This document shows, one piece after another, positions 2,639 to 17,749 of a DNA stretch of 22,542 nt. A program made the translations under genes and the position numbers. The stretch spans positions 1-22,542 of IMG/VR virus record IMGVR_UViG_3300014625_000037, one strand, 5' to 3'. The DNA comes from a virus. Its lineage: Duplodnaviria > Heunggongvirae > Uroviricota > Caudoviricetes. How positions within the stretch are numbered: the stretch's first letter is position 1; every line of letters starts with the position of its first letter. The notes beneath the pieces were generated by a model. The model saw only the letters and a program-made list of their open reading frames with translations, did no database searches and had not been told where the DNA came from.

Positions 2639-3213
2639 ACCGGGCCTCCGGTTGTGTCGCCGCCTTTCAGGACGCCAGTATGCTGATGTGCATCAACCAC
2701 AATTCCGTTAGAACTCATTGCACCGCCGCCCTGGGTAACACCACCATTCATCACTACTTCGCTGTTAATACGCGTGCGGTCAGCCTCCAGCACAAACTCA
2801 CTGGTTTTCATGGTGATGTTGTCAGCGGCCTCAATGACCATTGATTTGATGCCCCTGACATACCAGCGCCCGGTGGCGGGTTCGTATTCAAACCGGCCAC
2901 CGTCAGGATGTTCTGTCACGCAGGCGTCCGCCGACGTCGACGGTGGCGCAAACTGATTCGAATAGATGGCGGGTAACGCAAAGGCGGTTTCCAGATTGCC
3001 GCCCAGACTCAGCAGCACCACCTGCTCACCTTCCGATGGTCGCCACCATGTGCGGGCATTCCCGGCACGCAGCGTCAGCCAACTGATCCAGTTGGTTTCA
3101 AGCTCGCCCGTTTTCACCCGGCAAAGCCAGTTTTCCCTGTCCACTTCGGTGACTACCCCTGTGCGGATCAGGTTGGTGATAAGGCGCATGATTTCGGTTA
3201 ATTGTGCGTTCAT
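2635..3213 (-). CDS. V: Baseplate spike/assembly protein V
   Basis: 192-aa ORF, ATG start at 3213; N-terminal region resembles P2 gpV from memory; first gene of the V-W-J-I-H block. Confidence 0.8.
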   Translation of the reverse strand: MNAQLTEIMRLITNLIRTGVVTEVDRENWLCRVKTGELETNWISWLTLRAGNARTWWRPSEGEQVVLLSLGGNLETAFALPAIYSNQFAPPSTSADACVTEHPDGGRFEYEPATGRWYVRGIKSMVIEAADNITMKTSEFVLEADRTRINSEVVMNGGVTQGGGAMSSNGIVVDAHQHTGVLKGGDTTGGPV

Positions 3214-3259
3214 TTCTAAAGTGTCTCACATTAGAATGTCCTATCATTGCGAAGAAATT

Positions 3260-3277
3260 TGTATGAATGAAGATACA
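3260..3277. promoter_or_regulatory. TGT-N12-ACA dyad (candidate Ogr/Delta-type late activator site) upstream of V
   Basis: Sequence TGTatgaatgaagatACA read directly; lies in the S-V intergenic where P2 has its PV late promoter. A dyad of this form is also expected by chance several times in 22 kb. Confidence 0.3.
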
Positions 3278-3290
3278 AAATGGAGATTGA

Positions 3291-4142
3291 ATGTTTACTG
3301 TTGGTATTTACGGCTTTACTCTAACAAAGATAACTCACTTTTCATTCGGGACAATGTATCCAATAGAAACCAGTTTTTTTAAATTAAAAAAATATAGACA
3401 AGACAAGGAAAAATTATATCTTACTGCGCTCCTTGAACTTGACATCATAGACAAGAGCGAAACAGATGATATCATATTTCATCTAGAGAAAATTTTGAGT
3501 TTTATAGAACAGAGAGCAGTATTTATCAGACACCAACTAAATAATAAGACTCATAAATTTGACTTACCCATAGATTTCCCTCTCTTTATAACTCCTAATA
3601 TTAACTTATCAAGTTCAGGAGAAATCATTCTTGAAGATTGCTTTTCCAAAAACTCAAGACGCTACTTTATTGAACTTGCTATAAATAAGATCATCATTGC
3701 TAGAGATCGACCATTTACCACAATACTTCATAAAAATGTATTGGTTTTCTCTAATCCAATAAATTATCTTGATGTATCATATTACTTACTTTTTTCCGGC
3801 CTTGAGTCATTAGTTCGAGAACGTGAGAATGATTTTAAATCAAACATTACGCCAATAATGTATCGTTACCTCAAAAAGCATGGGTTTAATATAAATCAAC
3901 AAAACAATAAACATCATGACATCTCACTTGATATTTACTGTAGCTTAAGGAACGCATTATTTCACAATGGTCAATTCCAAACCATGCCGATGAAAAGAGG
4001 CTCTAAAACAATCAGTTTTGCACTAAAGGATTTTTACTCACAATTTAAACGATTAAACTGCCTCGTCATATTAAAAGAAGCAGAATTCAGCGATCATCAT
4101 ATCAACTGGAATTTTAGTGATTATAGAAACCCTTTTATATAA
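3291..4142 (+). CDS. AT-rich moron: hypothetical 283-aa protein with C-terminal HEPN-like R-x4-H motif (candidate abortive-infection/RNase-type defence protein)
   Basis: ATG at 3291 preceded by GGAG (3282-3285). Opposite strand to all flanking late genes. Strongly AT-rich codon usage (Ile/Asn/Lys/Phe rich). Motif RNALFH at residues 220-225 (nt 3948-3965). Confidence 0.6.
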   Translation: MFTVGIYGFTLTKITHFSFGTMYPIETSFFKLKKYRQDKEKLYLTALLELDIIDKSETDDIIFHLEKILSFIEQRAVFIRHQLNNKTHKFDLPIDFPLFITPNINLSSSGEIILEDCFSKNSRRYFIELAINKIIIARDRPFTTILHKNVLVFSNPINYLDVSYYLLFSGLESLVRERENDFKSNITPIMYRYLKKHGFNINQQNNKHHDISLDIYCSLRNALFHNGQFQTMPMKRGSKTISFALKDFYSQFKRLNCLVILKEAEFSDHHINWNFSDYRNPFI

Positions 4143-4143
4143 C

Positions 4144-4590
4144 TCACCCTGACAACCAATGAAGTAAAATATCATGAGTGATGGCCTCTAACTCATCGTT
4201 GCTCCCCAACAACTGCCGCTCTGCGTACCGTACCTCCGGTCCTTTGCGACTGACGCGATCACGTAGGCCGTAATGGTGAACACGGGCAATTCGCTGCACC
4301 TTACCTTCAAACTGCACGCTGGCAGAGTCGGCGCTGGCGGCAGTTTTCAGGTATTTTGTGGTGCGCAGCTTTGCAAACATCTGACGTTTGATGCGCCCCT
4401 TCTTGCTGCGTGCTGTTACCCTGCGCGGTTCATAACTGCTGCCATCTGGATTGCGCTGCATCCTGATATTCTGCTGCTGTGTCCGGCGCAGTTCCTGCGC
4501 CAGCTGGCGCATCATGCGGCTTCTCGTGGCTGGTTCCAGATTCGCCAGTAAGGCACTCAGCCAGTCGTCCACCTTCTGCAGTTCAGCCAC
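4144..4590 (-). CDS. S: Tail completion / virion morphogenesis protein (P2 gpS family)
   Basis: 148-aa ORF; motif QRNPDGSSYEPRR...KKGRIKR...RIARVHHYGLRD is typical of the phage virion morphogenesis family as I recall it. Apparent GTG start at 4590 overlapping the endolysin stop. Confidence 0.7.
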   Translation of the reverse strand: MAELQKVDDWLSALLANLEPATRSRMMRQLAQELRRTQQQNIRMQRNPDGSSYEPRRVTARSKKGRIKRQMFAKLRTTKYLKTAASADSASVQFEGKVQRIARVHHYGLRDRVSRKGPEVRYAERQLLGSNDELEAITHDILLHWLSG

Positions 4591-5161
4591 GTTTCACCGT
4601 CCACATTTCTTCAGGTTCATCGGGTTCTGCTACAGCTTCAACGCTCGACACACTGCCGTCAGTGCTGACCAGCACACGTTCCGTCAGTTGCAGGTTATCC
4701 AGCCCCTGATTAAACACACCTTTTACATACACCCAGCGCGGCAACTGTCGGCACGCATCCGCCCAGCGCCGCTGATTGAGCAATTTCACCAGCGTGGAAC
4801 TGCAGGCATTGCCCGTTCCCACGTTGAAGGCAAACGACACTGCAGCGTCATACACCTTCTGCGGCGGCTGTTGCTTCACACACCTTTCCAGCGCCCGCTC
4901 CACACGCAGCACGTTGGAGATCAGCCCTTCCGCTGCATGTCGTTCCGTAATGGTTTTGCCCGGGATGACGCCCGATGTATTACCAATGCCGTCGGTCCAG
5001 ACACCCGCGCTGCACTGATACGGCTGCAGACGACAGCCTTCGTAATCAGCAATCAGTTTCAGCCCCTCCATGGAGGTGTGAAGCTGCTGAAAACCCGGCA
5101 GCGTGGCAGCAATAGCCAGCACGGTCCCGACAAGGCAGCGTTTAACGATTGATGGATTCAT
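4583..5161 (-). CDS. Endolysin, T4-lysozyme-like glycosidase with N-terminal signal-anchor-release (SAR) segment
   Basis: 192-aa ORF; strong RBS GGGAGG upstream of ATG 5161; hydrophobic N-terminal stretch LVGTVLAIAATL; catalytic spacing E41-x8-C50-x5-T56 (E-8-D/C-5-T signature). Confidence 0.8.
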   Translation of the reverse strand: MNPSIVKRCLVGTVLAIAATLPGFQQLHTSMEGLKLIADYEGCRLQPYQCSAGVWTDGIGNTSGVIPGKTITERHAAEGLISNVLRVERALERCVKQQPPQKVYDAAVSFAFNVGTGNACSSTLVKLLNQRRWADACRQLPRWVYVKGVFNQGLDNLQLTERVLVSTDGSVSSVEAVAEPDEPEEMWTVKRG

Positions 5162-8828: not shown

Positions 8829-10595
8829 ATGAACACCACACTGACACCCGCAGATCTCGATCCCCGTCGGCAGGCCATGCTGCTGTACTTTCAGGGATAC
8901 CGCGTCGCCCGCATTGCTGAAATGCTGGGCGAGAAAGTTGCAACCGTTCACAGCTGGAAAAAACGCGACAAGTGGGGTGACTATGGGCCGCTGGATCAGA
9001 TGCAGCTCACCACCGCCGCACGCTACTGCCAGCTCATTATGAAGGAGCACAAAGAAGGGAAAGATTTCAAAGAGATTGACCTGCTGGCGCGCCAGTCGGA
9101 GCGCCACGCGCGGATCGGCAAGTTTAACAATGGCGGCAACGAAGCCGACTTAAACCCTAACGTCGCCAACCGCAACAAAGGCCCACGCCGTCAGCCGGAA
9201 AAGAATGTTTTCACCGATGAGCAGATTGAGAAGCTGGAAGAAATCTTCCATTCCTCCATGTTCAACTACCAGCGCCACTGGTGGGAAGCCGGAAAAACCA
9301 ACCGCATCCGCAACCTGCTGAAGTCACGCCAGATCGGCGCGACCTTTTACTTTGCCCGTGAAGCCCTGATTGACGCTCTGCTTACCGGACGTAACCAGAT
9401 TTTCCTTTCTGCCAGTAAGGCACAGGCCCACGTCTTCAAACAGTACATCATCGACTTTGCCAAAGAAGTGGAGGTGGAGCTGAAAGGCGATCCGATGGTG
9501 CTTCCCAACGGGGCCACACTGTATTTCCTCGGAACCAATGCCCGCACGGCCCAGAGTTACCACGGCAACCTGTATCTGGATGAATATTTCTGGATACCGA
9601 AATTCCAGGAGCTGCGCAAAGTGGCTTCCGGTATGGCTATTCACAAAAAATGGCGACAAACCTATTTTTCCACGCCATCCAGCCTGACCCACAGTGCTTA
9701 TCCGTTCTGGTCCGGTGCGCTGTTCAACCGTGGACGCAACAAAGCTGACAAGGTGGACATCGACCTGTCCCACAGCAATCTGGCCCCCGGCCTGCTGTGC
9801 GCAGACGGGCAATACCGCCAGATAGTCACCGTGGAAGATGCGGTGCGCGGCGGCTGTAACCTGTTCGACCTCGACCAGCTACGCATGGAGTACAGCCCGG
9901 ACGAATACCAGAACCTGCTGATGTGCGAGTTCGTGGACGATCTCGCGTCCGTGTTCCCGCTCAGCGAACTGCAGGCGTGCATGGTGGACAGTTGGGAAGT
10001 CTGGACCGACTTTCATGCACTGGCCCTGCGCCCGTTTGGCTGGCGCGAGGTGTGGATCGGTTATGACCCGGCAAAAGGTACGCAGAACGGCGACAGCGCC
10101 GGATGCGTGGTGGTGGCACCGCCAGCCGTGCCAGGCGGTAAGTTTCGCATTCTTGAGCGTCACCAGTGGCGCGGGATGGACTTCCGCGCCCAGGCGGACG
10201 CCATCAAAAAACTGACCGAACAGTACAACGTGACCTATATCGGCATCGACTCGACAGGTGTCGGTCACGGGGTTTACGAGAACGTGAAAGCGTTTTTTCC
10301 AGCCGTCCGGGAGTTTGTCTACAACCCCAACGTTAAAAACGCCCTGGTACTCAAGGCCTACGACATTATCAGCCACCGCCGTCTGGAGTTTGACGCCGGA
10401 CACACCGACATAGCGCAGTCATTTATGGCAATCCGTCGCGCCACCACCGCCAGCGGCAACCGCCCGACCTATGAAGCCAGCCGCAGCGAAGAAGCCAGCC
10501 ACGCCGATCTGGCCTGGGCAACGATGCACGCTCTGTTTAACGAACCGCTGCAGGGCGAATCCGCCAATACCAGCAATATTGTGGAGATTTTTTGA
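8829..10595 (+). CDS. P: Terminase large (ATPase) subunit P
   Basis: 588-aa ORF; strong resemblance to P2 gpP along its length as I recall it (RRQAMLLYFQG...NPNVANRNKGPRRQPE...SRQIGATFYFAREAL...SEE.SHADLAWATMHAL). Confidence 0.9.
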   Translation: MNTTLTPADLDPRRQAMLLYFQGYRVARIAEMLGEKVATVHSWKKRDKWGDYGPLDQMQLTTAARYCQLIMKEHKEGKDFKEIDLLARQSERHARIGKFNNGGNEADLNPNVANRNKGPRRQPEKNVFTDEQIEKLEEIFHSSMFNYQRHWWEAGKTNRIRNLLKSRQIGATFYFAREALIDALLTGRNQIFLSASKAQAHVFKQYIIDFAKEVEVELKGDPMVLPNGATLYFLGTNARTAQSYHGNLYLDEYFWIPKFQELRKVASGMAIHKKWRQTYFSTPSSLTHSAYPFWSGALFNRGRNKADKVDIDLSHSNLAPGLLCADGQYRQIVTVEDAVRGGCNLFDLDQLRMEYSPDEYQNLLMCEFVDDLASVFPLSELQACMVDSWEVWTDFHALALRPFGWREVWIGYDPAKGTQNGDSAGCVVVAPPAVPGGKFRILERHQWRGMDFRAQADAIKKLTEQYNVTYIGIDSTGVGHGVYENVKAFFPAVREFVYNPNVKNALVLKAYDIISHRRLEFDAGHTDIAQSFMAIRRATTASGNRPTYEASRSEEASHADLAWATMHALFNEPLQGESANTSNIVEIF

Positions 10596-11617
10596 TGAAA
10601 GAACATATCGCGCCAGACGAAACCGTAACTGCAGAAGAAACTAAAAAATCCGTTGCGGAGGCTTTCAGCTTTGGTGATCCCATTCCTGTACTGGACCGCC
10701 GCGAACTGCTGGACTATGTGGAATGCGTACAGATGGATCGCTGGTATGAGCCGCCCGTCAGCTTTGACGGACTGGCGCGCACCTTCCGCGCCGCCGTGCA
10801 CCACAGCTCCCCGATCAGTGTTAAGCGTGACATTATCAGCAGTACCTATATTCCACATCGCCTTCTCAGCCAGCAGGCATTTACCCGTTTTGTGCAGGAC
10901 TATCTGGTTTTTGGTAACGCCTACCTGGAGAAACGCACGAACCGCTTTGGTGAAGTTATTTCGCTGGAACCTGCACTGGCAAAATACACCCGGCGCGGAC
11001 TTGACCTTGAAACATACTGGTTTGTGCAATACAGCCTGACGACACAGCCGTATCAGTTCACAAAAGGTAATGTCTTCCACCTGATGGAGCCGGATATCAA
11101 CCAGGAGATTTATGGTCTGCCGGGTTACCTTTCTGCCATTCCGTCAGCTCTGCTCAACGAATCCGCCACGCTGTTCCGCCGCAAGTATTACATCAACGGC
11201 AGTCATGCAGGCTTCATCATGTACATGACCGACGCCGCGCAGAACCAGGAGGATGTAAACAACCTCCGTAACGCGATGAAAAGCGCCAAAGGTCCAGGCA
11301 ACTTCCGTAATCTGTTTATGTACTCGCCTAACGGCAAAAAAGACGGGCTTCAGATTATCCCGTTATCAGAAGTCGCAGCGAAGGATGAGTTTCTGAATAT
11401 CAAGAACGTGAGCCGGGACGACATGATGGCAGCACACCGAGTGCCGCCGCAAATGATGGGGATTATGCCGAATAATGTTGGTGGATTTGGGGATGTGGAG
11501 AAAGCGAGTAAAGTTTTTGTGAGAAATGAACTGATCCCGCTGCAGAAGAGATTATTCGAGATAAATGTATGGCTAGGAGAAAATGTCATTACTTTCCAGC
11601 CATACAACTTAGATTAA
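10595..11617 (+). CDS. Q: Portal protein Q
   Basis: Track ORF starts at TTG 10592; ATG at 10595 overlaps the P stop (ATGA). About 340 aa as in P2 gpQ. Divergent from O as in P2. Confidence 0.85.
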   Translation: MKEHIAPDETVTAEETKKSVAEAFSFGDPIPVLDRRELLDYVECVQMDRWYEPPVSFDGLARTFRAAVHHSSPISVKRDIISSTYIPHRLLSQQAFTRFVQDYLVFGNAYLEKRTNRFGEVISLEPALAKYTRRGLDLETYWFVQYSLTTQPYQFTKGNVFHLMEPDINQEIYGLPGYLSAIPSALLNESATLFRRKYYINGSHAGFIMYMTDAAQNQEDVNNLRNAMKSAKGPGNFRNLFMYSPNGKKDGLQIIPLSEVAAKDEFLNIKNVSRDDMMAAHRVPPQMMGIMPNNVGGFGDVEKASKVFVRNELIPLQKRLFEINVWLGENVITFQPYNLD

Positions 11618-11665: not shown

Positions 11666-12670
11666 TTATTCTTCTGAATCATCATAAACATCCATTCCTT
11701 CGGTCTGATTTCTAATATAAGAAGCCCCCATAGAATTAGCAATCGCAGTCCGAATTAACCCTACATGAGTGAAAAACACCCCTAACCTAGCACGCTTTAA
11801 CTCAGACTCATCATCATAGTCATCTTCATTACTTATAATTCTTCTAACCATTGCCTTATCTTCGTCAATAGCCGAAGGTAGCCCACTCTTTAAAGCGTCA
11901 ATACACTCACCTACAGTTATAATTTTATTTTTAATTAATTCAGAAAGCAAATCATCATAATTTTCATCATCAGATTTATTATCAGGTGGTAATTCACTTG
12001 CAGCTATCATTTTCAGCAATTCTACGTCAAGCATAGTTCCTCTATCTAGTCTGCTTGTCTCAACATACCCCTCACGCTCTGATAACACTCTTTCAAATTC
12101 GAAATCAACGACTTCAAGCAAAGCAGATACTCTATTAATTGCTCGCCTAAGAGGAAGTGGAACACTTTGCTCTTTTTTGTATTGCAGTTTATGAGATGCT
12201 GCAGCCCAAATATGCTGAGAAAGCGTTCGTATTTGCACCTCCACTTTCATATTTTTAAAATCACTAAAGGATGGAACTCTTAGCCATTCTTCTGGAGGTT
12301 GTATTACATAATGATGAGATTGGTACCCAAATCTATCCTCATCCAGTTCATCAAGTTTATTCTCTTGCTTCAAAATAATGAAATGTTCTTTCAGACAAGA
12401 TATAACCTTTTCAACATCTCGCTTAAATAGCATTATTAATCGGATTCCAACATAATCATCCAAGTCAACTATTGACTCAATCTTTAGAGGTTTTCGGTTA
12501 TCCTTATTAATAATAGAACTTAATGTTTTGACACGGCTTTCAATTGGAACCCCTAAAGACAATTTATTCTCCGACAAAATAACATCAATTTGCTCAACCA
12601 TAACTCGTCTGAACAATTCCGCAACTGAGCCGTAAATTGAATGCTGTTCTTTTAATTCTTCGTCTGTCAT
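11666..12670 (-). CDS. RelA/SpoT-domain nucleotidyltransferase, 334 aa (candidate fused toxSAS/CapRel-like defence protein or small alarmone synthetase)
   Basis: ATG at 12670 with AGGTAAGA upstream. Synthetase-domain motifs RVKTLSS (46-52), DYVGIRL (72-78), GYQSHH (115-120), EVQIRTLSQHIWAAASH (144-160). C-terminal ~150 aa acidic domain without obvious motif. AT-rich. No adjacent small ORF. Confidence 0.75.
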   Translation of the reverse strand: MTDEELKEQHSIYGSVAELFRRVMVEQIDVILSENKLSLGVPIESRVKTLSSIINKDNRKPLKIESIVDLDDYVGIRLIMLFKRDVEKVISCLKEHFIILKQENKLDELDEDRFGYQSHHYVIQPPEEWLRVPSFSDFKNMKVEVQIRTLSQHIWAAASHKLQYKKEQSVPLPLRRAINRVSALLEVVDFEFERVLSEREGYVETSRLDRGTMLDVELLKMIAASELPPDNKSDDENYDDLLSELIKNKIITVGECIDALKSGLPSAIDEDKAMVRRIISNEDDYDDESELKRARLGVFFTHVGLIRTAIANSMGASYIRNQTEGMDVYDDSEE

Positions 12671-12787
12671 CTATCTTACCTAACTTATATAAATGAATCA
12701 GATATAAAACATTGCATAATTTTAATTCAAGTGGACAACATATAAATTATCCGATCTAAACCACTTAAACAACAGGTTTTGCGCGCG

Positions 12788-12806
12788 CTCGTATCCCCGC
12801 CACGCC
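12788..12806. other. Candidate cos (cohesive end) site
   Basis: Minus-strand reading GGCGTGGCGGGGATACGAG shares its first 13 nt with the 186/P2 cohesive-end sequence as I remember it (GGCGTGGCGGGGAAAGCAT); a short inverted repeat cccgcc/ggcggg lies nearby at 12857-12874. Confidence 0.4.
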
Positions 12807-12966
12807 TGCCCGCTTTATGTAGCGGTTTTCATGCGCCTGCATGACATAAGCAAAATCCCGCCACTCCTGGCGGGCCTCAGCTAAAACGATCCTCAAACGA
12901 TCATGCGGATTCATGCGGCATAGACATGCACAATCTCCAAAGCGAGCATCGAGACTTTTTGGAAAC

Positions 12967-13578
12967 CTACGTAACCACAGTTAATGTGTGCATCCTGTCT
13001 CGAATTGCATCACACGTCTCATCAAAAAGCTTGATGATGGTTGTATGGTTCAACTCCGCCTCTTTCCAATAATTTTGCCCGTCAAATTCTGGATCGCTAT
13101 GCTTAAACGATATTGACTCTGAAAGGCATTCCTTCCGGAAACGGTCCAAGATTATATAAACCTCTGGTGAGATGAACGGTTTGTTAGATTCAACACTTGT
13201 AACAAAAGTGTTAAATGCATCAGAAAAAACTTTCAACCTTCTAAATTTTCTCTCTTCAAATGGTTCGTTGGGGTCAACATGATCCAGCGCAGGCCTCAGC
13301 TTAAGCACGCTTTCTCTGGTTTCAAACATCGAATTCCAAATGAGACTATATGCTGATAACTCCTTATCAAAATACGCTTTCGTTACATAAACAGAATTGT
13401 CTAACTTAGCCTTTATTCTTTCATTAGTTGCACTCAGTTGTGATTGAAATTCAGCAATATCTTTGTTTAGCCGCGACTTATATCTTTCTAAATAAACTTT
13501 CCCGATCCAAACAAATATGCCAGATGCAACAAAAGACACCCCACCCAACGAAGCCAGAACTTTAAAGACTAAATCCAT
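12967..13578 (-). CDS. Hypothetical membrane-anchored protein, 203 aa (single N-terminal TM helix)
   Basis: ATG at 13578; N-terminal hydrophobic segment VLASLGGVSFVASGIFVWIG followed by a ~170-aa soluble domain; AT-rich; sits beside cos at the position P2 uses for old/tin. Confidence 0.65.
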   Translation of the reverse strand: MDLVFKVLASLGGVSFVASGIFVWIGKVYLERYKSRLNKDIAEFQSQLSATNERIKAKLDNSVYVTKAYFDKELSAYSLIWNSMFETRESVLKLRPALDHVDPNEPFEERKFRRLKVFSDAFNTFVTSVESNKPFISPEVYIILDRFRKECLSESISFKHSDPEFDGQNYWKEAELNHTTIIKLFDETCDAIRDRMHTLTVVT

Positions 13579-13626
13579 TGCGCCCCCACCTGCAAAAATA
13601 GTATTCCATTATAAGCTAATACATTT

Positions 13627-13842
13627 TTAATCAAACAGGGGATAATTCGCGTCAACCTCATCACTTCTCTGCTCTACCCTAGTGACTTCCATCAAAAACC
13701 CCAGGCCGTCATATAGCGAAACGGGGAATTCCAGCTCAAGCCAGAAGCAGTCTTCATAGATGCGGCCCAACCAAAAACCTCCGCCACACTCCTTTGGGCG
13801 TTGAAAGAAGACCCAGTCGCCAAGGGTTAAACGTTCCAGCAC
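13627..13842 (-). CDS. Questionable 71-aa ORF (GTG start)
   Basis: Only a GTG start; no convincing RBS found; could be a gene remnant. Confidence 0.2.
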   Translation of the reverse strand: MLERLTLGDWVFFQRPKECGGGFWLGRIYEDCFWLELEFPVSLYDGLGFLMEVTRVEQRSDEVDANYPLFD

Positions 13843-14546: not shown

Positions 14547-16919
14547 TTAATACAGGTTCCGCCACTTATCATCTTCCTGCAAACGCTGGTTCCGATAGAA
14601 GACACGCAGGCCTGCTCCTGACGGAATACTGCCGCCGCGAAGGAGTAAATCGACCTCTTTCTCGCTGCCATCAAATCCTCTGGACTTCAGTTCATAGACG
14701 AGCTGCTGTCGTTGATGGTCTGTAATTCGCTGTTTGTAGTCTCTACGCCGTTTCGGTTTCACCAGGCGTAACCTTGCAGCCAGTTCCCGGCGCTCTTTTT
14801 TGTTCATACTGTGCAGGTAATCGTGCAACTCCTTGTCATCCATGTGGGTAATGTCCGTTCTGGTATCCCCATCAGCTGATTTGTCTTTCCCTTGTTGGTT
14901 CAAATTTTCAGCAAGGGGACAGTTATTGCCACGAGTCCAAGGGGCGCAAGCGCCCTGGTCGGCTGCCGCCTCCTGAACATCAACGGCCTTACGAACCATT
15001 TTCCACTTCACGGCATGAGTGCAGATCTTGCCCTCTGCAATAGGTGACCAGATGCCATAAATACGAATGCCGTGATCGCCATAGGCGGTCGGCTCTTCGT
15101 TGATTTCATAAGCGGTTCTGATGAGGTGATATTTGCGGGGAACCAGTACGCCGCCCTGCTTCATGATGTAGGTGGCAAAACAACCAGCATCAGCAGCAGC
15201 CAGGATGGCATCAAGGCGTGGGTTATCCAGTACCGGCGCACCTGCTTTTTTGTCCCCCTGTTGCCTTGCCGCCTGACCAGCCAGCAATCGCAGTTCACGG
15301 TAAGCCTGACGCCCCGGAATGCCAAAGAAACGGAATTGCTGAACACGATGCAGAGACGCCCAGGCATTAACGTATTCAGCATTATCACGCAGGGATTTCC
15401 CCGTTTCCTTGCTGATCTCGCCAGCCAGACCACGCCCGTCAATGTTCTTACTGATGTATTTCGCGATGTAGCTTGTTGGCGTTCCTTTGCGCGGGTTAAT
15501 CAACTCAGACTTAAAGCGCGGCCCAGTGTTATTGCCCAGCTCCTCGCGGTCTTCACGGATGGCAAACTTACGCAGTAATGCAGTGATGGCACGGCGGTCT
15601 TTTTTGCGCATGAAACACAACAGGTGCCAGTGAACTGTGCCGTCATGATGCGGCTCAGCCACCCGCACGCCATACCAGCGCAACCCGGCTTTGTGCATCG
15701 CCTTACGAAATGCAGCAAACATGCCGACCAGATAATCGCTGCTTTGTCTTACCGTCGCGTTTGTCCAGGTCGGGTTTGGTCTGCCGTTATTGAGCGTGGA
15801 ATGGAAACGTGACGGACAGGTGATGGTGTAGAAAACGGCGCAGTCACCGCGCATTTCCGCGATAAGCTCCAGACCTTTAACACAGGCCATCATCTCATTG
15901 CGGCGATGCGCCGGGTTGCTGCTGCTGGCGTTTACCACATCCTCCATGTCCAGCGTGTCGCCGTCTTCGTTCACCAGTTCATGAGAACGGAAAAACTCCA
16001 GCGACTTACGGCGCTGCTCACGTTTATGCATCACGGCTTCATAGCTGACATAGGGAGATGCTTTTTTGCTGACCAGGCAGACAGCACGCAACTGCTCTTC
16101 CCGCCATTCGCAACGCATCTTCCATAATTTCCGGTACCACCAGTCAGCGCACAACATACGCGCCAGCGAACCCGGAATGAGTTCATAGGGCACGGGTTTA
16201 CGGCGGTTTCTTTTCCGGCGGAGTTGCTCAAACGCAGGCGGGATGACATCCAGACGCAGGGTTTCCGCTGCCACCTTTTCCCATGTCTTGCGGATTTCTT
16301 CTGGCTTAACGTCATCGGTGACATACAAATCGCCACAAGCTGCATCAAGGCACATGCTCATATGCGCAGCTACCAGGGTGGACAGGCGTTTCACCTGATC
16401 CTGACTCATTTCAGGCAGGATCAGCAGGCCGTCCAGCCCTTCATGGCTTGCCATAAAGCGAAAAGAAGTGGATAGCTGACAGTCGCGTACATGCTCCAGC
16501 CGTTCCAGACATGGCTTAATCGTCTCACGCAAATAGCGGGAATAAGCCTTTGGCCTGCCCAGGCTGCTGAAGTATTCAATACGTTGCATCAGCGGCTTGC
16601 TGATATGGGAAGGCTGGGCATTGACGTCCGCCAGAATGACCATATCTGGATTAAAACGCTGCTGCTCATGCGCCAGCTTTGCCCGACTAATGAGCTTATC
16701 CTGCTCCATTTCGCGCTGGACAGGATCACGGGATTCATTAAAGAAATAACGCTCCCAGACCTGATCACTCAGTGCCTCGCGGCGCAGCTGTTCCTGCTCG
16801 TTATCGGCAGCGTACAGAGCGATCAGGTTTGAAAGCGCAGAAACTGAAGATTGCTCTTCTGTCTCTACGTAAGGATTGATTGCTTTTTTCTCAGCATTCC
16901 AGGAATAGCTGTAGTTCAT
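14547..16919 (-). CDS. A: Replication initiation protein A (rolling-circle nickase)
   Basis: Track ORF has a TTG start at 16970; ATG at 16919 (MNYSYSW...) overlaps the upstream stop (TAATG). About 790 aa, size and position as P2/186 gene A. Confidence 0.85.
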
Positions 16920-17749
16920 TACGCAATCTCCAGTTCGAGCTGTGAAGGCTGCAAACCATTCGACAGCCAATCAGAAACTGAAGGTGGGCGAACAGCTTCA
17001 ATTGCACCTTTTAAAATTGCGCAACGGTTTTTCAGAATGACAGCTTTCAGCTCCTTTTCCGTCAGATTGCGCGAATACTCAGCCTCCTGAATAGCCCGCG
17101 TCAGCTCAGGATATTTGCTATTAAATTTGGGGACATTGCAGGCAAGATTTGTACTGTCGGCAGTCGCCAGTGGGTAATTTCCCAACACACGACCGTCAAG
17201 CATGCGCAAACCATGAACAGCTGTTTTGAAATTGTGTCGGCAATAAATTGCTTCAAAAGCGTCCTGCATACGATGATGCCAGTGCGCAGTTCTGATAGCC
17301 GCATATTCACCAGACGATCCAAAGCAGACACGAGGCCATTCACGACATAGCTCGATAAGCCGATCGATTGACTCGTGCAGATGCCAGACGGGAGTTGCCT
17401 TCCCGTAGAACATTTTCGGAACTTCGTTTATCAGGGCATCATTGTCACGTTCACCTCCGTCCACAACATCAGGAATGACAAAAAAAGCGACCTTAGGATG
17501 GTGGTAATAGTTCAGGAGCCATTTATAAAAATCACTCCAGTTAATTTTTAGCCCACGCACCCATGCAGAAAATGCGCCGTTATCAATGCCGACGACCTGA
17601 GCGTGCTGAATGGACGCCGCAATCTGATCTGGTCGTACATAGGAGACGAAAGCGCCAGCTCCGCTCACCGCAATACGATGAACGTCGCCAGCACTTCCCC
17701 AGACAGGCGTCCCATGGAAATGATGAATTCCGTGGTGCATTTCTTTCAC
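16919..17749 (-). CDS. Hypothetical early protein, 276 aa, translationally coupled between Dam and A
   Basis: GTG at 17749 overlapping the Dam stop, or ATG at 17740; His-rich N-terminus; no family recognised with confidence. Confidence 0.6.

What the first reader, a model, noticed from the sequence alone, without database searches (positions are those of the whole stretch)
12967..13578. Membrane-anchored 203-aa protein beside cos in the old/tin-equivalent hotspot
The gene between replication gene A and cos is a well-known variable slot in P2-like phages (old and tin in P2). Here it holds an AT-rich gene for a protein with one N-terminal TM helix and an unrecognised soluble domain. Single-gene membrane proteins at this locus are candidates for abortive infection or superinfection exclusion.
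Basis: inference. Interest (0 to 1): 0.55.

Follow-up and report, generated by a model that had tools for sequence, protein, structure and literature searches.

The report
Membrane-anchored prophage cargo gene beside cos
A real, lysogen-expressed gene carried as swappable cargo next to the packaging site of a P2-like prophage encodes a membrane-tethered helical protein from a large, unstudied family that rides on phages, satellites and integrons, so it is a good but untested anti-phage candidate.

Summary
ORF 12967-13578 (-) is a real 203-aa gene: 38.6% GC against 53% for gpA, dN/dS about 0.11. It lies between gpA/DinI and cos (12780-12838) of a P2-like prophage, and it is already catalogued.

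- **Prior record.** Rousset et al. 2022 list it as untested P2-hotspot "System #39, 1 TM" (103 occurrences). PHROGs holds it as phrog_26391.
- **Expression.** Its 96%-identical copy in E. coli LF82 prophage Cartapus (CARTA_47) is a published moron. It is transcribed in the lysogen while gpA and the structural genes are silent, and it rises about 30-fold in macrophages.
- **New here.**
  - It belongs to a large family with no Pfam model: 909 representatives, in most major bacterial lineages sampled.
  - Architecture is conserved: an N-terminal TM helix (predicted N-out/C-in), a stalk, and a four-helix bundle (AF2 pLDDT 92).
  - There is no conserved partner gene.
  - Members sit as single-gene cargo in P2-like phages, int-alpA satellite-like islands, a Lactiplantibacillus satellite-like element, a Pseudomonas phage next to cI, a Clostridium phage, and a Vibrio integron cassette.
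- **Neighbours.** The RelA_SpoT gene across cos and the upstream orf71 both assort independently.

An anti-phage role (abortive infection or exclusion at the inner membrane) is the best reading, at about 0.45. It is untested, and no mechanism can be read from the fold.

The parts
12967..13578 (-). Coding sequence of the 203-aa cargo protein (stop codon 12967-12969). It is 100% identical to RefSeq WP_020218871.1 and 96% identical to Cartapus gp47 / LF82_789.
   Evidence: ORF list; phrog_26391 full-length match; identity to the EC444 and LF82 copies; dN/dS 0.11.
13495..13563 (-). N-terminal transmembrane helix (residues about 6-28). Only about 5 residues precede it. Predicted topology is N-out, C-in.
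   Evidence: Kyte-Doolittle peak 2.01. In the window protein, 5 K/R fall in the 15 residues after the helix, against one lysine (plus the amino terminus) before it. Family means are 3.3 after against 1.3 before, and the TM helix is conserved in 136/147 members.
13396..13494 (-). Basic helical stalk (residues 29-61, pI 9.3), continuous with the TM helix.
   Evidence: AF2 helix 14-61, pLDDT about 90; pI. This segment is the source of the weak coiled-coil hits such as Val_tRNA-synt_C and Apolipoprotein.
12970..13395 (-). Soluble domain (residues 62-203). It is an up-down four-helix bundle (helices 67-92, 107-131, 138-160, 168-198) closed by a two-strand sheet (63-65 with 199-201). It is mildly acidic (pI 5.4). 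The family-conserved positions are F70, E73, W81, L94-R95-P96, P134-F135, E154, I192-R193 and R195.
13579..13634 (-). Putative own promoter and 5' leader. It has a perfect TATAAT at 13613-13608 and a weak -35-like TTGATT at 13634-13629 with a 15-nt spacer. The SD-like GGTGGGGG is at 13590-13583.
   Evidence: Read from the sequence. The stretch from the orf71 stop to the ATG, promoter included, is identical in LF82; the only differences lie further upstream, inside orf71. In LF82 the gene reads log2 8.5-8.6 in broth while the ORF just upstream reads 2.6-2.8. The consensus scan did not call this promoter, so its position is inferred.
12857..12874 (-). Terminator-like GC-rich hairpin followed by a T-run, 93 nt after the stop codon and just before cos.
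   Evidence: Pattern scan. No test of function was possible.
12780..12838 (.). cos region, which marks the boundary of this half of the hotspot. It is not part of the gene.
   Evidence: The Cartapus genome record ends at window position 12839, and its first 59 nt are annotated as a P2-like cos. Similarity to the LF82 copy stops at about 12781, and the 30 best of the 41 carrying genomes start matching within 12777-12782.

Best explanation
This is a horizontally acquired, single-gene cargo ('moron') in the cos-proximal hotspot of a P2-like prophage. It is transcribed from its own promoter in the lysogen.

It encodes a bitopic inner-membrane protein. A very short N-terminus faces outward, one TM helix crosses the membrane, and a basic stalk carries a mildly acidic four-helix bundle held at the cytoplasmic face.

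The most likely job is inter-phage conflict: protecting the lysogen, and so the prophage, from other phages. The proposed mechanism has three steps.
1. The conserved bundle recognises a phage product, or a phage-induced change, at the membrane. The candidate surface is the invariant charged and aromatic cluster (E73, R95, E154, R193, R195, W81, F135).
2. The response is then one of two kinds. The tethered protein may obstruct the incoming genome-entry or early membrane complex (exclusion). Or stalk- and TM-driven self-association may damage membrane integrity (abortive infection).
3. I slightly favour the abortive type, because almost none of the protein is exposed to the periplasm.

Shown:
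- gene reality
- cargo status
- lysogenic expression (in the 96%-identical LF82 copy)
- family size and architecture
- recurrence in cargo slots of mobile elements

Inferred:
- topology
- any anti-phage activity
- every mechanistic step
For: 1. Location. The gene sits in the gpA-Q hotspot, which holds old and tin in P2. There, 3 of 8 further cloned systems gave phage resistance (PMC9122126). The gene is listed as hotspot 'System #39, 1 TM, 103 occurrences'.

2. Expression. LF82_789/CARTA_47 is a published moron, 7-fold above prophage background in LB. Its log2 fpkm values are 5.4-5.6 (LB), 8.5-8.6 (B6) and 10.5 (macrophage, 6 h). In the same samples gpA reads 2.5-2.9, the portal gene 2.5-3.1, and the ORF just upstream 2.6-3.3 in broth.

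3. Foreign composition and purifying selection. GC is 38.6% against 53% for gpA, and dN/dS is 0.11.

4. Single-gene autonomy.
- The other half-slot holds RelA_SpoT here, DUF4145 in LF82 and AIPR in EC444.
- The four complete genomes that carry the RelA_SpoT gene are a different set from the genomes carrying this gene. The one inspected has other cargo between DinI and cos and no homologue of this gene.
- About 40 distant loci share no conserved neighbour.

5. Recurrent cargo in conflict-prone elements.
- 20 P2-like viral contigs.
- Placed directly after int-alpA, ahead of a repressor-like gene and/or a primase-helicase gene, in satellite-like islands: four viral contigs representing three distinct proteins (39-49% identity), with the same arrangement inferred by gene sizes for two more loci. 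A seventh contig is cut before the int side.
- Next to int in a Lactiplantibacillus satellite-like element.
- In the immunity region of Pseudomonas phage Riah, two genes and about 1.7 kb from cI, and between terS and terL of Clostridium phage Maintenon.
- As a single integron cassette flanked by attC-like repeats in Vibrio parahaemolyticus.
- Beside a methylase-nuclease gene and an Abi_alpha gene in a metagenomic contig.
- Neighbours at 31 further loci include integrases, TniB/TnsB, SLFN-type helicase, nSTAND, Mrr_cat and several PADLOC candidate families.

6. Prior from the literature. 6 of 8 randomly chosen unknown loci in the P4 hotspot protected against phages, and 15-32% of unknown P2 proteins score as antiviral by machine learning (PMC13586616).
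Against: - No phenotype exists for any member of the family.
- There is no sequence match to any PADLOC, Pfam or NCBIfam defence family.
- The P2 hotspot also carries non-defence cargo, such as partition systems and cytolethal distending toxin.
- Many family members sit among housekeeping genes (aconitase, pheT, GAPDH, near dnaA) without obvious mobile or defence neighbours.
- A 203-aa protein with one TM helix has to be both sensor and effector, which is unusual.
- The bundle is acidic (pI 5.4), so an AbiP-like nucleic-acid-binding mode is unlikely.
- Induction in DMEM and macrophages fits a host-physiology role equally well.
Confidence: 0.45

Rival explanations
1. Host-physiology moron. The membrane-tethered bundle modulates envelope or stress physiology of the lysogen, for example in stationary phase, nutrient limitation or inside macrophages. 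It benefits the host directly and has no anti-phage activity.
For: Expression rises stepwise from LB to DMEM to macrophages, about 30-fold in all. Many family members lie among housekeeping genes in free-living bacteria of many phyla. The P2 hotspot is known to carry non-defence cargo.
Against: The neighbouring AT-rich cargo CARTA_1 (DUF4145) shows the same induction profile, so the pattern may reflect general derepression of foreign DNA rather than a specific function. The family's spread across soil, marine and anaerobic taxa argues against a host-niche-specific role. Its repeated placement in satellite, phage and integron cargo slots is more typical of conflict genes.
Confidence: 0.2
2. The gene serves the carrying element itself. 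Candidate roles are tuning lysis timing through holin or membrane interactions, helping maintenance of lysogeny, or countering a host defence (anti-defence).
For: It is carried by many unrelated temperate phages and satellites. In Clostridium phage Maintenon it lies between terS and terL. A membrane-anchored helical protein could plausibly bind holins.
Against: It is absent from most P2-like relatives, which complete their cycle without it. It is expressed in the uninduced lysogen while the lysis genes are silent. It lies outside the lysis cassette. It also occurs as an integron cassette and in non-mobile chromosomal contexts where no phage cycle is involved. A survey of 1511 P2-like elements found recognisable anti-defence systems in only 28 of them.
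Confidence: 0.15
3. It is one half of a two-gene system, partnered either with the RelA_SpoT (alarmone-synthetase-like) gene across cos or with the 71-aa ORF directly upstream.
For: All three are adjacent on the same strand in the prophage. The 71-aa ORF is directly upstream in all 19 P2-like viral contigs whose sequence reaches that side, including the 83%-identity subgroup. It is absent from three P2-like relatives that lack the gene.
Against: - RelA_SpoT occurs in 4 complete E. coli genomes, a different set from the genomes that carry this gene. The one inspected has no homologue of this gene. The 41 genomes with this gene carry other cargo there, such as DUF4145 or AIPR.
- cos separates the two genes in the packaged genome.
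- Rousset et al. list them as separate systems, #39 and #128.
- The 71-aa ORF has backbone GC (50.5%) and reads about 55-fold lower than the gene in broth.
- It is missing next to the 35-49%-identical relatives in seven viral contigs and Kosakonia.
- Its homologues sit after DinI with different cargo in a Klebsiella P2-like phage, and in the ea region of P22-like phages.
Confidence: 0.05
4. It is a periplasm-facing protein: either a sensor-like four-helix-bundle domain or an i-spanin-like lysis component, anchored N-in/C-out.
Against: - Positive-inside rule: 5 K/R in the 15 residues after the TM helix, against one lysine (plus the amino terminus) before it. The family means are 3.3 and 1.3.
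- There is no second TM helix and no output domain.
- Sequence identity to the sensor domains is 3-8%, and designed bundles score nearly as well.
- No Pfam 4HB_MCP or spanin family hit in 80 members.
- It is expressed in the lysogen while the lysis genes are silent, and it lies far from the lysis cassette.
Confidence: 0.04

Closest known systems
Cargo of the P2 gpA-cos-gpQ hotspot (old, tin and other systems; Rousset et al. 2022, PMC9122126; Moura de Sousa et al. 2026, PMC13586616)
   Same: It sits in the same slot, has foreign composition, is swapped rapidly between otherwise near-identical phages, and is expressed in the lysogen. This exact protein is listed there as 'System #39, 1 TM'.
   Different: Old is an ATPase-TOPRIM nuclease, and tin is a different, unrelated exclusion gene. 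This protein shares no sequence or domain with either and has never been tested.
Lactococcal AbiP (membrane-anchored single-gene abortive infection protein; recalled from the literature, not tested here)
   Same: The architecture is similar: an N-terminal membrane anchor, a cytoplasmic domain, and a single gene.
   Different: AbiP binds nucleic acids, whereas this bundle is acidic (pI 5.4). No homology test was possible, because no AbiP sequence was reachable and no Abi family in Pfam or PADLOC matches.
Prophage superinfection-exclusion membrane proteins (T4 Imm, P22 SieA, HK97 gp15, lactococcal Sie2009; recalled from the literature)
   Same: They are small inner-membrane proteins expressed from a prophage or early genes, encoded by single genes, and found in moron positions.
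   Different: There is no sequence relationship (no PHROG or Pfam link). Here almost nothing is exposed outside the membrane (about 5 residues), whereas several Sie proteins act through external domains.
Four-helix-bundle sensor domains of chemoreceptors and histidine kinases (4HB_MCP type: Tar, Tsr, TorS, PDB 4k0d)
   Different: Identity is only 3-8%. There is no second TM helix and no signalling output. The predicted location is cytoplasmic rather than periplasmic. No Pfam hit was found, and the similarity is no better than to designed bundles.
Brigantia, a Vibrio cholerae integron-cassette anti-phage gene described only as 'a transmembrane domain and no other known domain' (Darracq et al. 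2024, bioRxiv 10.1101/2024.07.02.601686)
   Same: It is a single-gene, TM-containing integron cassette. A member of the present family is also a single integron cassette, in V. parahaemolyticus.
   Different: The relationship is unknown because the sequence could not be obtained here. Searches seeded with the V. parahaemolyticus member and with the family profile returned no protein named as V. cholerae, which argues weakly against identity.

Membership tests
P2-like gpA-cos-gpQ hotspot cargo (Rousset et al. 2022) | Located between replication gene A and portal gene Q, next to cos | tested here: met
   gpA is at 14547-16970, the gene at 12967-13578, cos at 12780-12838 and portal Q at 10592-11617. 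The protein is listed in Table S5B as System #39.
P2-like gpA-cos-gpQ hotspot cargo (Rousset et al. 2022) | Variable presence among closely related phages; foreign base composition | tested here: met
   41 of 5426 complete E. coli genomes hold it, while 1272 have some match to the 1.2-kb stretch around it. Fels-2 and a Klebsiella phage carry other genes in the slot. GC is 38.6% against 53% for gpA.
P2-like gpA-cos-gpQ hotspot cargo (Rousset et al. 2022) | Confers resistance to phage infection when expressed | not testable with these tools
   This needs plaque and liquid-infection assays. The protein's sequence is absent from the published tables of tested systems.
Prophage moron (autonomously expressed in the lysogen) | Transcribed in the uninduced lysogen, independently of lytic genes | tested here: met
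   This is met by proxy. The LF82 copy is 96% identical, and the stretch from the orf71 stop to the ATG, promoter included, is identical. It is listed as a moron, at log2 5.4-10.5 against 2.5-3 for gpA and the portal gene (PMC9928086). It was not measured in the strain of this window.
Superinfection-exclusion inner-membrane proteins (Imm, SieA, gp15, Sie2009) | Sequence or profile homology to a known Sie family | tested here: not met
   The only PHROG match is phrog_26391 (unknown function). No Pfam, NCBIfam or PADLOC family matches.
Superinfection-exclusion inner-membrane proteins (Imm, SieA, gp15, Sie2009) | Blocks genome entry without killing the cell | not testable with these tools
   This requires DNA-entry, potassium-efflux and survival assays.
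Single-gene membrane-anchored abortive infection proteins (AbiP-like) | N-terminal membrane anchor with a cytoplasmic functional domain | tested here: inconclusive
   The TM helix and the charge bias predict N-out/C-in, and AF2 shows a stalk plus bundle. The topology is predicted, not measured.
Single-gene membrane-anchored abortive infection proteins (AbiP-like) | Homology to an Abi family, or nucleic-acid binding | tested here: not met
   No Abi Pfam or PADLOC model is hit in 80 members. The domain is acidic, pI 5.4 with a family median of 5.7.
4HB_MCP-type periplasmic sensor domains | Four-helix-bundle fold | tested here: met
4HB_MCP-type periplasmic sensor domains | Sequence-family membership, placement between two TM helices, and an attached signalling output | tested here: not met
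   There is no Pfam hit. The protein has a single TM helix and ends after the bundle. The charge bias places the bundle in the cytoplasm.
Lysis proteins (i-spanin or holin-like) | Encoded in the lysis cassette, expressed late, conserved in the lineage | tested here: not met
   It lies beside cos, far from the lysis genes. In LF82 the holin, endolysin and LysB read at background while this gene is expressed. It is present in only a minority of relatives.
Valyl-tRNA synthetase (the RefSeq name of WP_020218871.1) | Match to synthetase catalytic or anticodon-binding domains above threshold | tested here: not met
   The only match is a 38-residue coiled-coil hit to PF10458, at 16.7 bits against a cut-off of 25.9. 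The name is an annotation artefact.
DUF4760 (UniRef name of one relative, P0292) | Pfam PF15956 match | tested here: not met
   hmmscan of P0292 and nine other members at E up to 10 returns no DUF4760 hit, and none was found among 80 members. A remote relationship was not tested by profile-profile comparison.
Brigantia (V. cholerae integron-cassette defence gene) | Sequence homology | not testable with these tools
   The sequence and locus tag are not in the text or supplement held here. The two protein searches that report source names returned no protein named as V. cholerae.

The most novel reading that the evidence does not exclude
The gene is the E. coli representative of a previously unrecognised, cross-phylum family of minimal one-protein anti-phage systems. 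The family has at least 909 clusters at 50% identity and no Pfam model. In this reading a membrane-tethered cytoplasmic four-helix bundle is the sensor and its own TM helix and stalk are the effector. The family spreads as single-gene cargo on P2-like phages, PICI-like satellites, Gram-positive satellites and integron cassettes.
Probability: 0.35. Interest if true: 0.7.

Novelty: new member of a known kind. Interest (0 to 1): 0.45.

Why it matters
If the gene is antiviral, it would add a very small, single-protein, membrane-anchored defence family with no recognisable enzymatic domain. The family is present in most major bacterial lineages sampled and on at least five kinds of mobile element, yet current defence finders and Pfam do not see it.

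It comes with a ready experimental handle. There is a natural E. coli lysogen (LF82/Cartapus) in which the gene is already known to be expressed and strongly induced inside macrophages. Short constructs are easy to build, and the invariant residues (E73, R95, E154, R193, R195) are obvious targets for mutation.

If it is not antiviral, it still matters. It would be a widespread moron whose induction in macrophages could bear on the physiology of adherent-invasive E. coli. It would also be a documented case of hotspot cargo that is not defence.

There is a practical by-product as well. RefSeq names this protein "valyl-tRNA synthetase" in many genomes, which is wrong.

Tried and rejected
- **Two-gene system with RelA_SpoT across cos.** Rejected. 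The two genes assort independently and are listed as separate systems.
- **Partnership with the 71-aa upstream ORF.** This looked promising, because the ORF is always adjacent in P2-like carriers. It was rejected as an obligate partner for three reasons. The ORF has backbone GC and is not co-expressed. It is absent beside the 35-49%-identical relatives. Its homologues occur with other cargo or in other phages.
- **Periplasmic sensor or i-spanin reading.** Rejected on charge bias, the single TM helix, and expression in the lysogen.
- **HEPN-like reading of the C-terminal IRxRxH.** Rejected. The spacing is wrong and H197 is not conserved.
- **Ferritin or di-iron bundle reading.** There are no ExxH motifs.
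- **Haemophilus phage HP1 orf1** (a weak BFVD structural hit in a P2-like phage). It is not a family member by HMM.
- **The search for related loci with three alignments.** All failed for lack of a conserved stretch. I replaced it with a hand-designed degenerate DNA pattern, which gave 31 true members among 40 genome hits and 27 among 27 viral hits.
- **Foldseek against AFDB50.** Not available. BFVD gave nothing significant.
- **Brigantia lead.** Could not be resolved, because no sequence is held.
- **UniRef 'DUF4760' label of one relative.** Not reproduced.
- **Consensus promoter scan.** It did not call a promoter upstream of the gene. The promoter is inferred from a perfect -10 hexamer and the LF82 transcriptome.
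Full report
**Observation.** The ORF reported at 12967-13578 exists on the minus strand. It starts with ATG and encodes 203 residues. A GGTGGGGG Shine-Dalgarno-like run lies 4-11 nt upstream. Four results show that it is a genuine gene.
- dN/dS against the 83%-identical subgroup is 0.11-0.13.
- It matches phrog_26391 over its full length.
- An exhaustive profile search found 909 relatives at E up to 0.001 and 381 at E up to 1e-10. Nearly all of the 150 best-scoring relatives listed are 180-230 residues long.
- Its 96%-identical copy in E. coli LF82 is transcribed.

It is AT-rich at 38.6% GC, against 53% for gpA and 50.5% for the small ORF just upstream (profile). A hydrophobic helix spans residues about 6-28 (Kyte-Doolittle 2.01), and 136 of 147 relatives keep it. 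The rest of the protein has no Pfam, NCBIfam, PADLOC or PDB sequence match. The same is true of 80 diverse relatives scanned one by one and of their profile.

**Setting.** The window is a P2-like (Fels-2 / Cartapus-like) prophage.
- It carries terminase P, portal Q, Dam methylase, gpA, CII, CI and an integrase.
- On the minus strand the order is: gpA (14547-16970), a phrog_698 ORF, DinI, a 71-aa phrog_2100 ORF (13627-13842), the 203-aa gene, cos, a 334-aa RelA_SpoT protein (11666-12670), and then portal Q on the other strand.
- I place cos at 12780-12838. The Cartapus genome record ends at window position 12839, and its first 59 nt are annotated as a P2-like cos. Similarity to the LF82 copy stops at about 12781, and the 30 best of the 41 carrying genomes start matching within 12777-12782.
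- This is the gpA-cos-gpQ hotspot of Rousset et al. 2022, which holds old and tin in P2 (PMC9122126).

**It is already catalogued but untested.**
- Table S5B of that paper lists this protein as "System #39": no Pfam, 103 occurrences, "1 TM".
- The RelA_SpoT neighbour is listed separately as "System #128", with 20 occurrences.
- The protein's sequence is absent from the table of systems that were cloned and tested.
- A 2026 follow-up on 1511 P2-like elements tested novel loci from P4 only (PMC13586616).

**It is a lysogen-expressed moron.** LF82 prophage Cartapus carries the gene as CARTA_47 / LF82_789 at 2759532-2760143. The stretch from the orf71 stop to the ATG, putative promoter included, is identical to the window. 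Misson et al. [quoted passage not shown] Their S1 Table gives these log2 fpkm values:

| Gene | LB overnight | B1 | B6 | Macrophage 1 h | Macrophage 6 h |
|---|---|---|---|---|---|
| CARTA_47 (this gene) | 5.4-5.6 | 7.1-7.3 | 8.5-8.6 | 9.0 | 10.5 |
| gpA | 2.5-2.9 throughout | | | | |
| Portal | 2.5-3.1 throughout | | | | |
| Upstream ORF (CARTA_46) | 3.1-3.3 | 3.3-3.6 | 2.6-2.8 | 4.9-5.2 | 7.5-7.7 |

The holin, endolysin and LysB genes read at background. The gene therefore has its own promoter. A perfect TATAAT at 13613-13608 is the obvious candidate, although the consensus scan did not call it. A terminator-like hairpin lies at 12857-12874, just before cos.

**It is a single-gene unit.**
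- The half-slot on the other side of cos holds RelA_SpoT here, DUF4145 in Cartapus/LF82 and an AIPR protein in strain EC444.
- The RelA_SpoT gene is present in only 4 complete E. coli genomes, a different set from the genomes carrying the 203-aa gene. The one inspected has other cargo between DinI and cos and no homologue.
- The 71-aa ORF is directly upstream in all 19 P2-like viral contigs whose sequence reaches that side. It is absent from three P2-like relatives that lack the gene.
- Even so, the 71-aa ORF is not a partner. It has backbone GC, it is not co-expressed in broth, and it is missing next to the 35-49%-identical relatives. Its homologues sit after DinI with different cargo (an ATPase plus RloB) in a Klebsiella P2-like phage, and in the ea region of P22-like phages.
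- Among about 40 distant loci, an all-against-all comparison of neighbouring proteins found no shared neighbour.

**The family.** Relatives come from many lineages:
- Gamma-, Beta- and Alphaproteobacteria
- Desulfobacterota and Myxococcota
- Bdellovibrionota
- Acidobacteriota
- Bacteroidota
- Cyanobacteria
- Nitrospirota
- Planctomycetota
- Elusimicrobiota
- Bacillota

Conserved positions are F70, E73 (invariant), W81, L94-R95-P96, P134 (invariant)-F135, E154, I192-R193 and R195 (invariant).

AlphaFold2 with the 80-sequence alignment gives mean pLDDT 92.3.
- A helix at 14-61 forms the TM segment plus a basic stalk.
- A four-helix bundle follows (67-92, 107-131, 138-160, 168-198).
- The bundle is closed by a small sheet between residues 63-65 and 199-201.

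The charge distribution predicts a cytoplasmic bundle. In this protein, 5 K/R follow the TM helix, against one lysine (plus the amino terminus) before it. The family means are 3.3 and 1.3. The bundle is mildly acidic, pI 5.4 with a family median of 5.7.

**Where relatives sit.**
- Twenty of 27 viral-contig hits are P2-like, with the gene in the same place.
- Four viral contigs, representing three distinct proteins at 39-49% identity, place it directly after a P4-type integrase and AlpA. A repressor-like gene and/or a primase-helicase gene follows, which is the layout of PICI-type satellites. Gene sizes suggest the same arrangement in two more loci (a reverse-complement duplicate contig and a Kosakonia genome). 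A seventh contig is cut before the int side.
- A Lactiplantibacillus "plasmid" that looks like a satellite has a 24%-identical member (HMM E 6e-28) next to its integrase.
- Pseudomonas phage Riah has one in its immunity region, two genes and about 1.7 kb from cI. Clostridium phage Maintenon has one between terS and terL.
- In Vibrio parahaemolyticus the gene is a single integron cassette, bounded by attC-like repeats in a ten-repeat array.
- One metagenomic contig has it beside a methylase-nuclease fusion and an Abi_alpha protein. A Corallococcus copy lies in a prophage-like region.
- Many copies, however, lie among housekeeping genes.
- Neighbours at 31 genome loci are a mix. Some are metabolic genes. 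Others are mobile or defence-type genes: integrases, Rha, TniB/TnsB, SLFN-type helicase, nSTAND, Mrr_cat, DUF4411 and several PADLOC candidate families. I could not compute a background rate, so this is suggestive only.

**Interpretation.** What is shown: a foreign, selected, autonomously expressed, single-gene cargo encoding a membrane-tethered helical protein, from a large family that repeatedly occupies cargo slots of phages, satellites and integrons. What is inferred: its role.

The prior for this hotspot is substantial but not overwhelming.
- 3 of 8 further P2 systems were active.
- 6 of 8 unknown P4 loci were active.
- 15-32% of unknown P2 proteins score as antiviral by machine learning.
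- Partition systems and toxins also occur there.

I therefore put an anti-phage role at about 0.45. I propose that the bundle senses a phage product at the cytoplasmic face of the membrane. The TM helix and stalk then either obstruct an entry or early membrane complex, or self-associate to damage the membrane. Almost none of the protein faces the periplasm, so I slightly favour the abortive type over classical exclusion.

The rivals are:
- a host-physiology moron (0.2), consistent with the induction in macrophages
- a function for the element itself or anti-defence (0.15)
- a two-gene system (0.05)
- a periplasm-facing protein (0.04)

**Comparison with known systems.** It works like other hotspot morons and resembles AbiP or Sie proteins in architecture. 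It fails every sequence-membership test that I could run. The RefSeq name "valyl-tRNA synthetase" rests on a sub-threshold coiled-coil match and is wrong. The UniRef label "DUF4760" on one relative is not reproduced. Brigantia, a V. cholerae cassette defence gene described only as having a transmembrane domain, remains an untested lead.

**Verdict.** The gene itself is not new to the literature, but its family, architecture and distribution across mobile elements had not been described. Interest is moderate (0.45). It would be high if a phage-resistance phenotype is found.

Noticed in passing
window 11666-12670 (-): A 334-aa RelA_SpoT / small-alarmone-synthetase-like protein (Pfam 7.6e-20; best PDB relatives YjbM/YwaC). 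It has a C-terminal extension of about 165 residues rich in acidic runs. It fills the cos-to-Q half of the hotspot and hits the PADLOC candidate family PDC-S33 (1.8e-16). It is Rousset 'System #128' (20 occurrences) and is present in only 4 of 5426 complete E. coli genomes. It could be a toxSAS- or CapRel-like single-gene defence.
   Followed up: partly
window 12967-13578; RefSeq WP_020218871.1: NCBI annotation names this protein 'valyl-tRNA synthetase' in many E. coli genomes. The only basis is a 38-residue coiled-coil match to PF10458, below threshold (16.7 against 25.9 bits).
   Followed up: yes
window 13627-13842 (-): A 71-aa ORF (phrog_2100, 50.5% GC) is directly upstream of the 203-aa gene in every P2-like carrier whose sequence covers that side. 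Homologues also occur after DinI with other cargo (an ATPase plus RloB) in a Klebsiella P2-like phage, and in the ea region of P22-like phages. It looks like a small semi-conserved early-operon gene of unknown function.
   Followed up: partly
window 3001-4142 (ORF 3291-4142, +): A second AT-rich island (31-42% GC) among the tail and baseplate genes holds a 283-aa ORF with no Pfam match. It is probably cargo in the other known P2 hotspot.
   Followed up: no
window 16919-17749 (-): A 276-aa ORF with no Pfam match is inserted between the Dam methylase and gpA. A gene is annotated at the same place in strain EC444 but not in Cartapus/LF82, so this may be a further variable slot.
   Followed up: no
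L016 1-6088 (Vibrio parahaemolyticus contig): Ten attC-like repeats about 120 nt long, spaced 470-1130 nt apart, mark a chromosomal integron array. A 37%-identical family member (4373-4954) is one self-contained cassette in it.
   Followed up: yes
L078 1869-7407; L063, L064 and L066 (IMG/VR contigs); L058 (Kosakonia): Family members at 39-49% identity sit directly after a P4-type integrase and AlpA, ahead of a repressor-like gene and/or a primase-helicase gene. This is the layout of PICI-type phage satellites. In L058 the arrangement is inferred from gene sizes only.
   Followed up: partly
L092 (Lactiplantibacillus plantarum 'plasmid' NZ_CP032651.1): The 16.2-kb record looks like two tandem copies of an 8-kb satellite-like element (integrase, HTH regulators, VapE primase, sigma-like factor). 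Each copy carries a family member next to the integrase.
   Followed up: partly
LF82 prophage Cartapus transcriptome (PMC9928086, S1 Table): The DinI gene and the small ORF upstream of it (CARTA_45, CARTA_44) jump from log2 of about 3-4.5 to 9-11 inside macrophages while gpA stays silent. The DUF4145 cargo across cos (CARTA_1) follows the same induction profile as the 203-aa gene.
   Followed up: no
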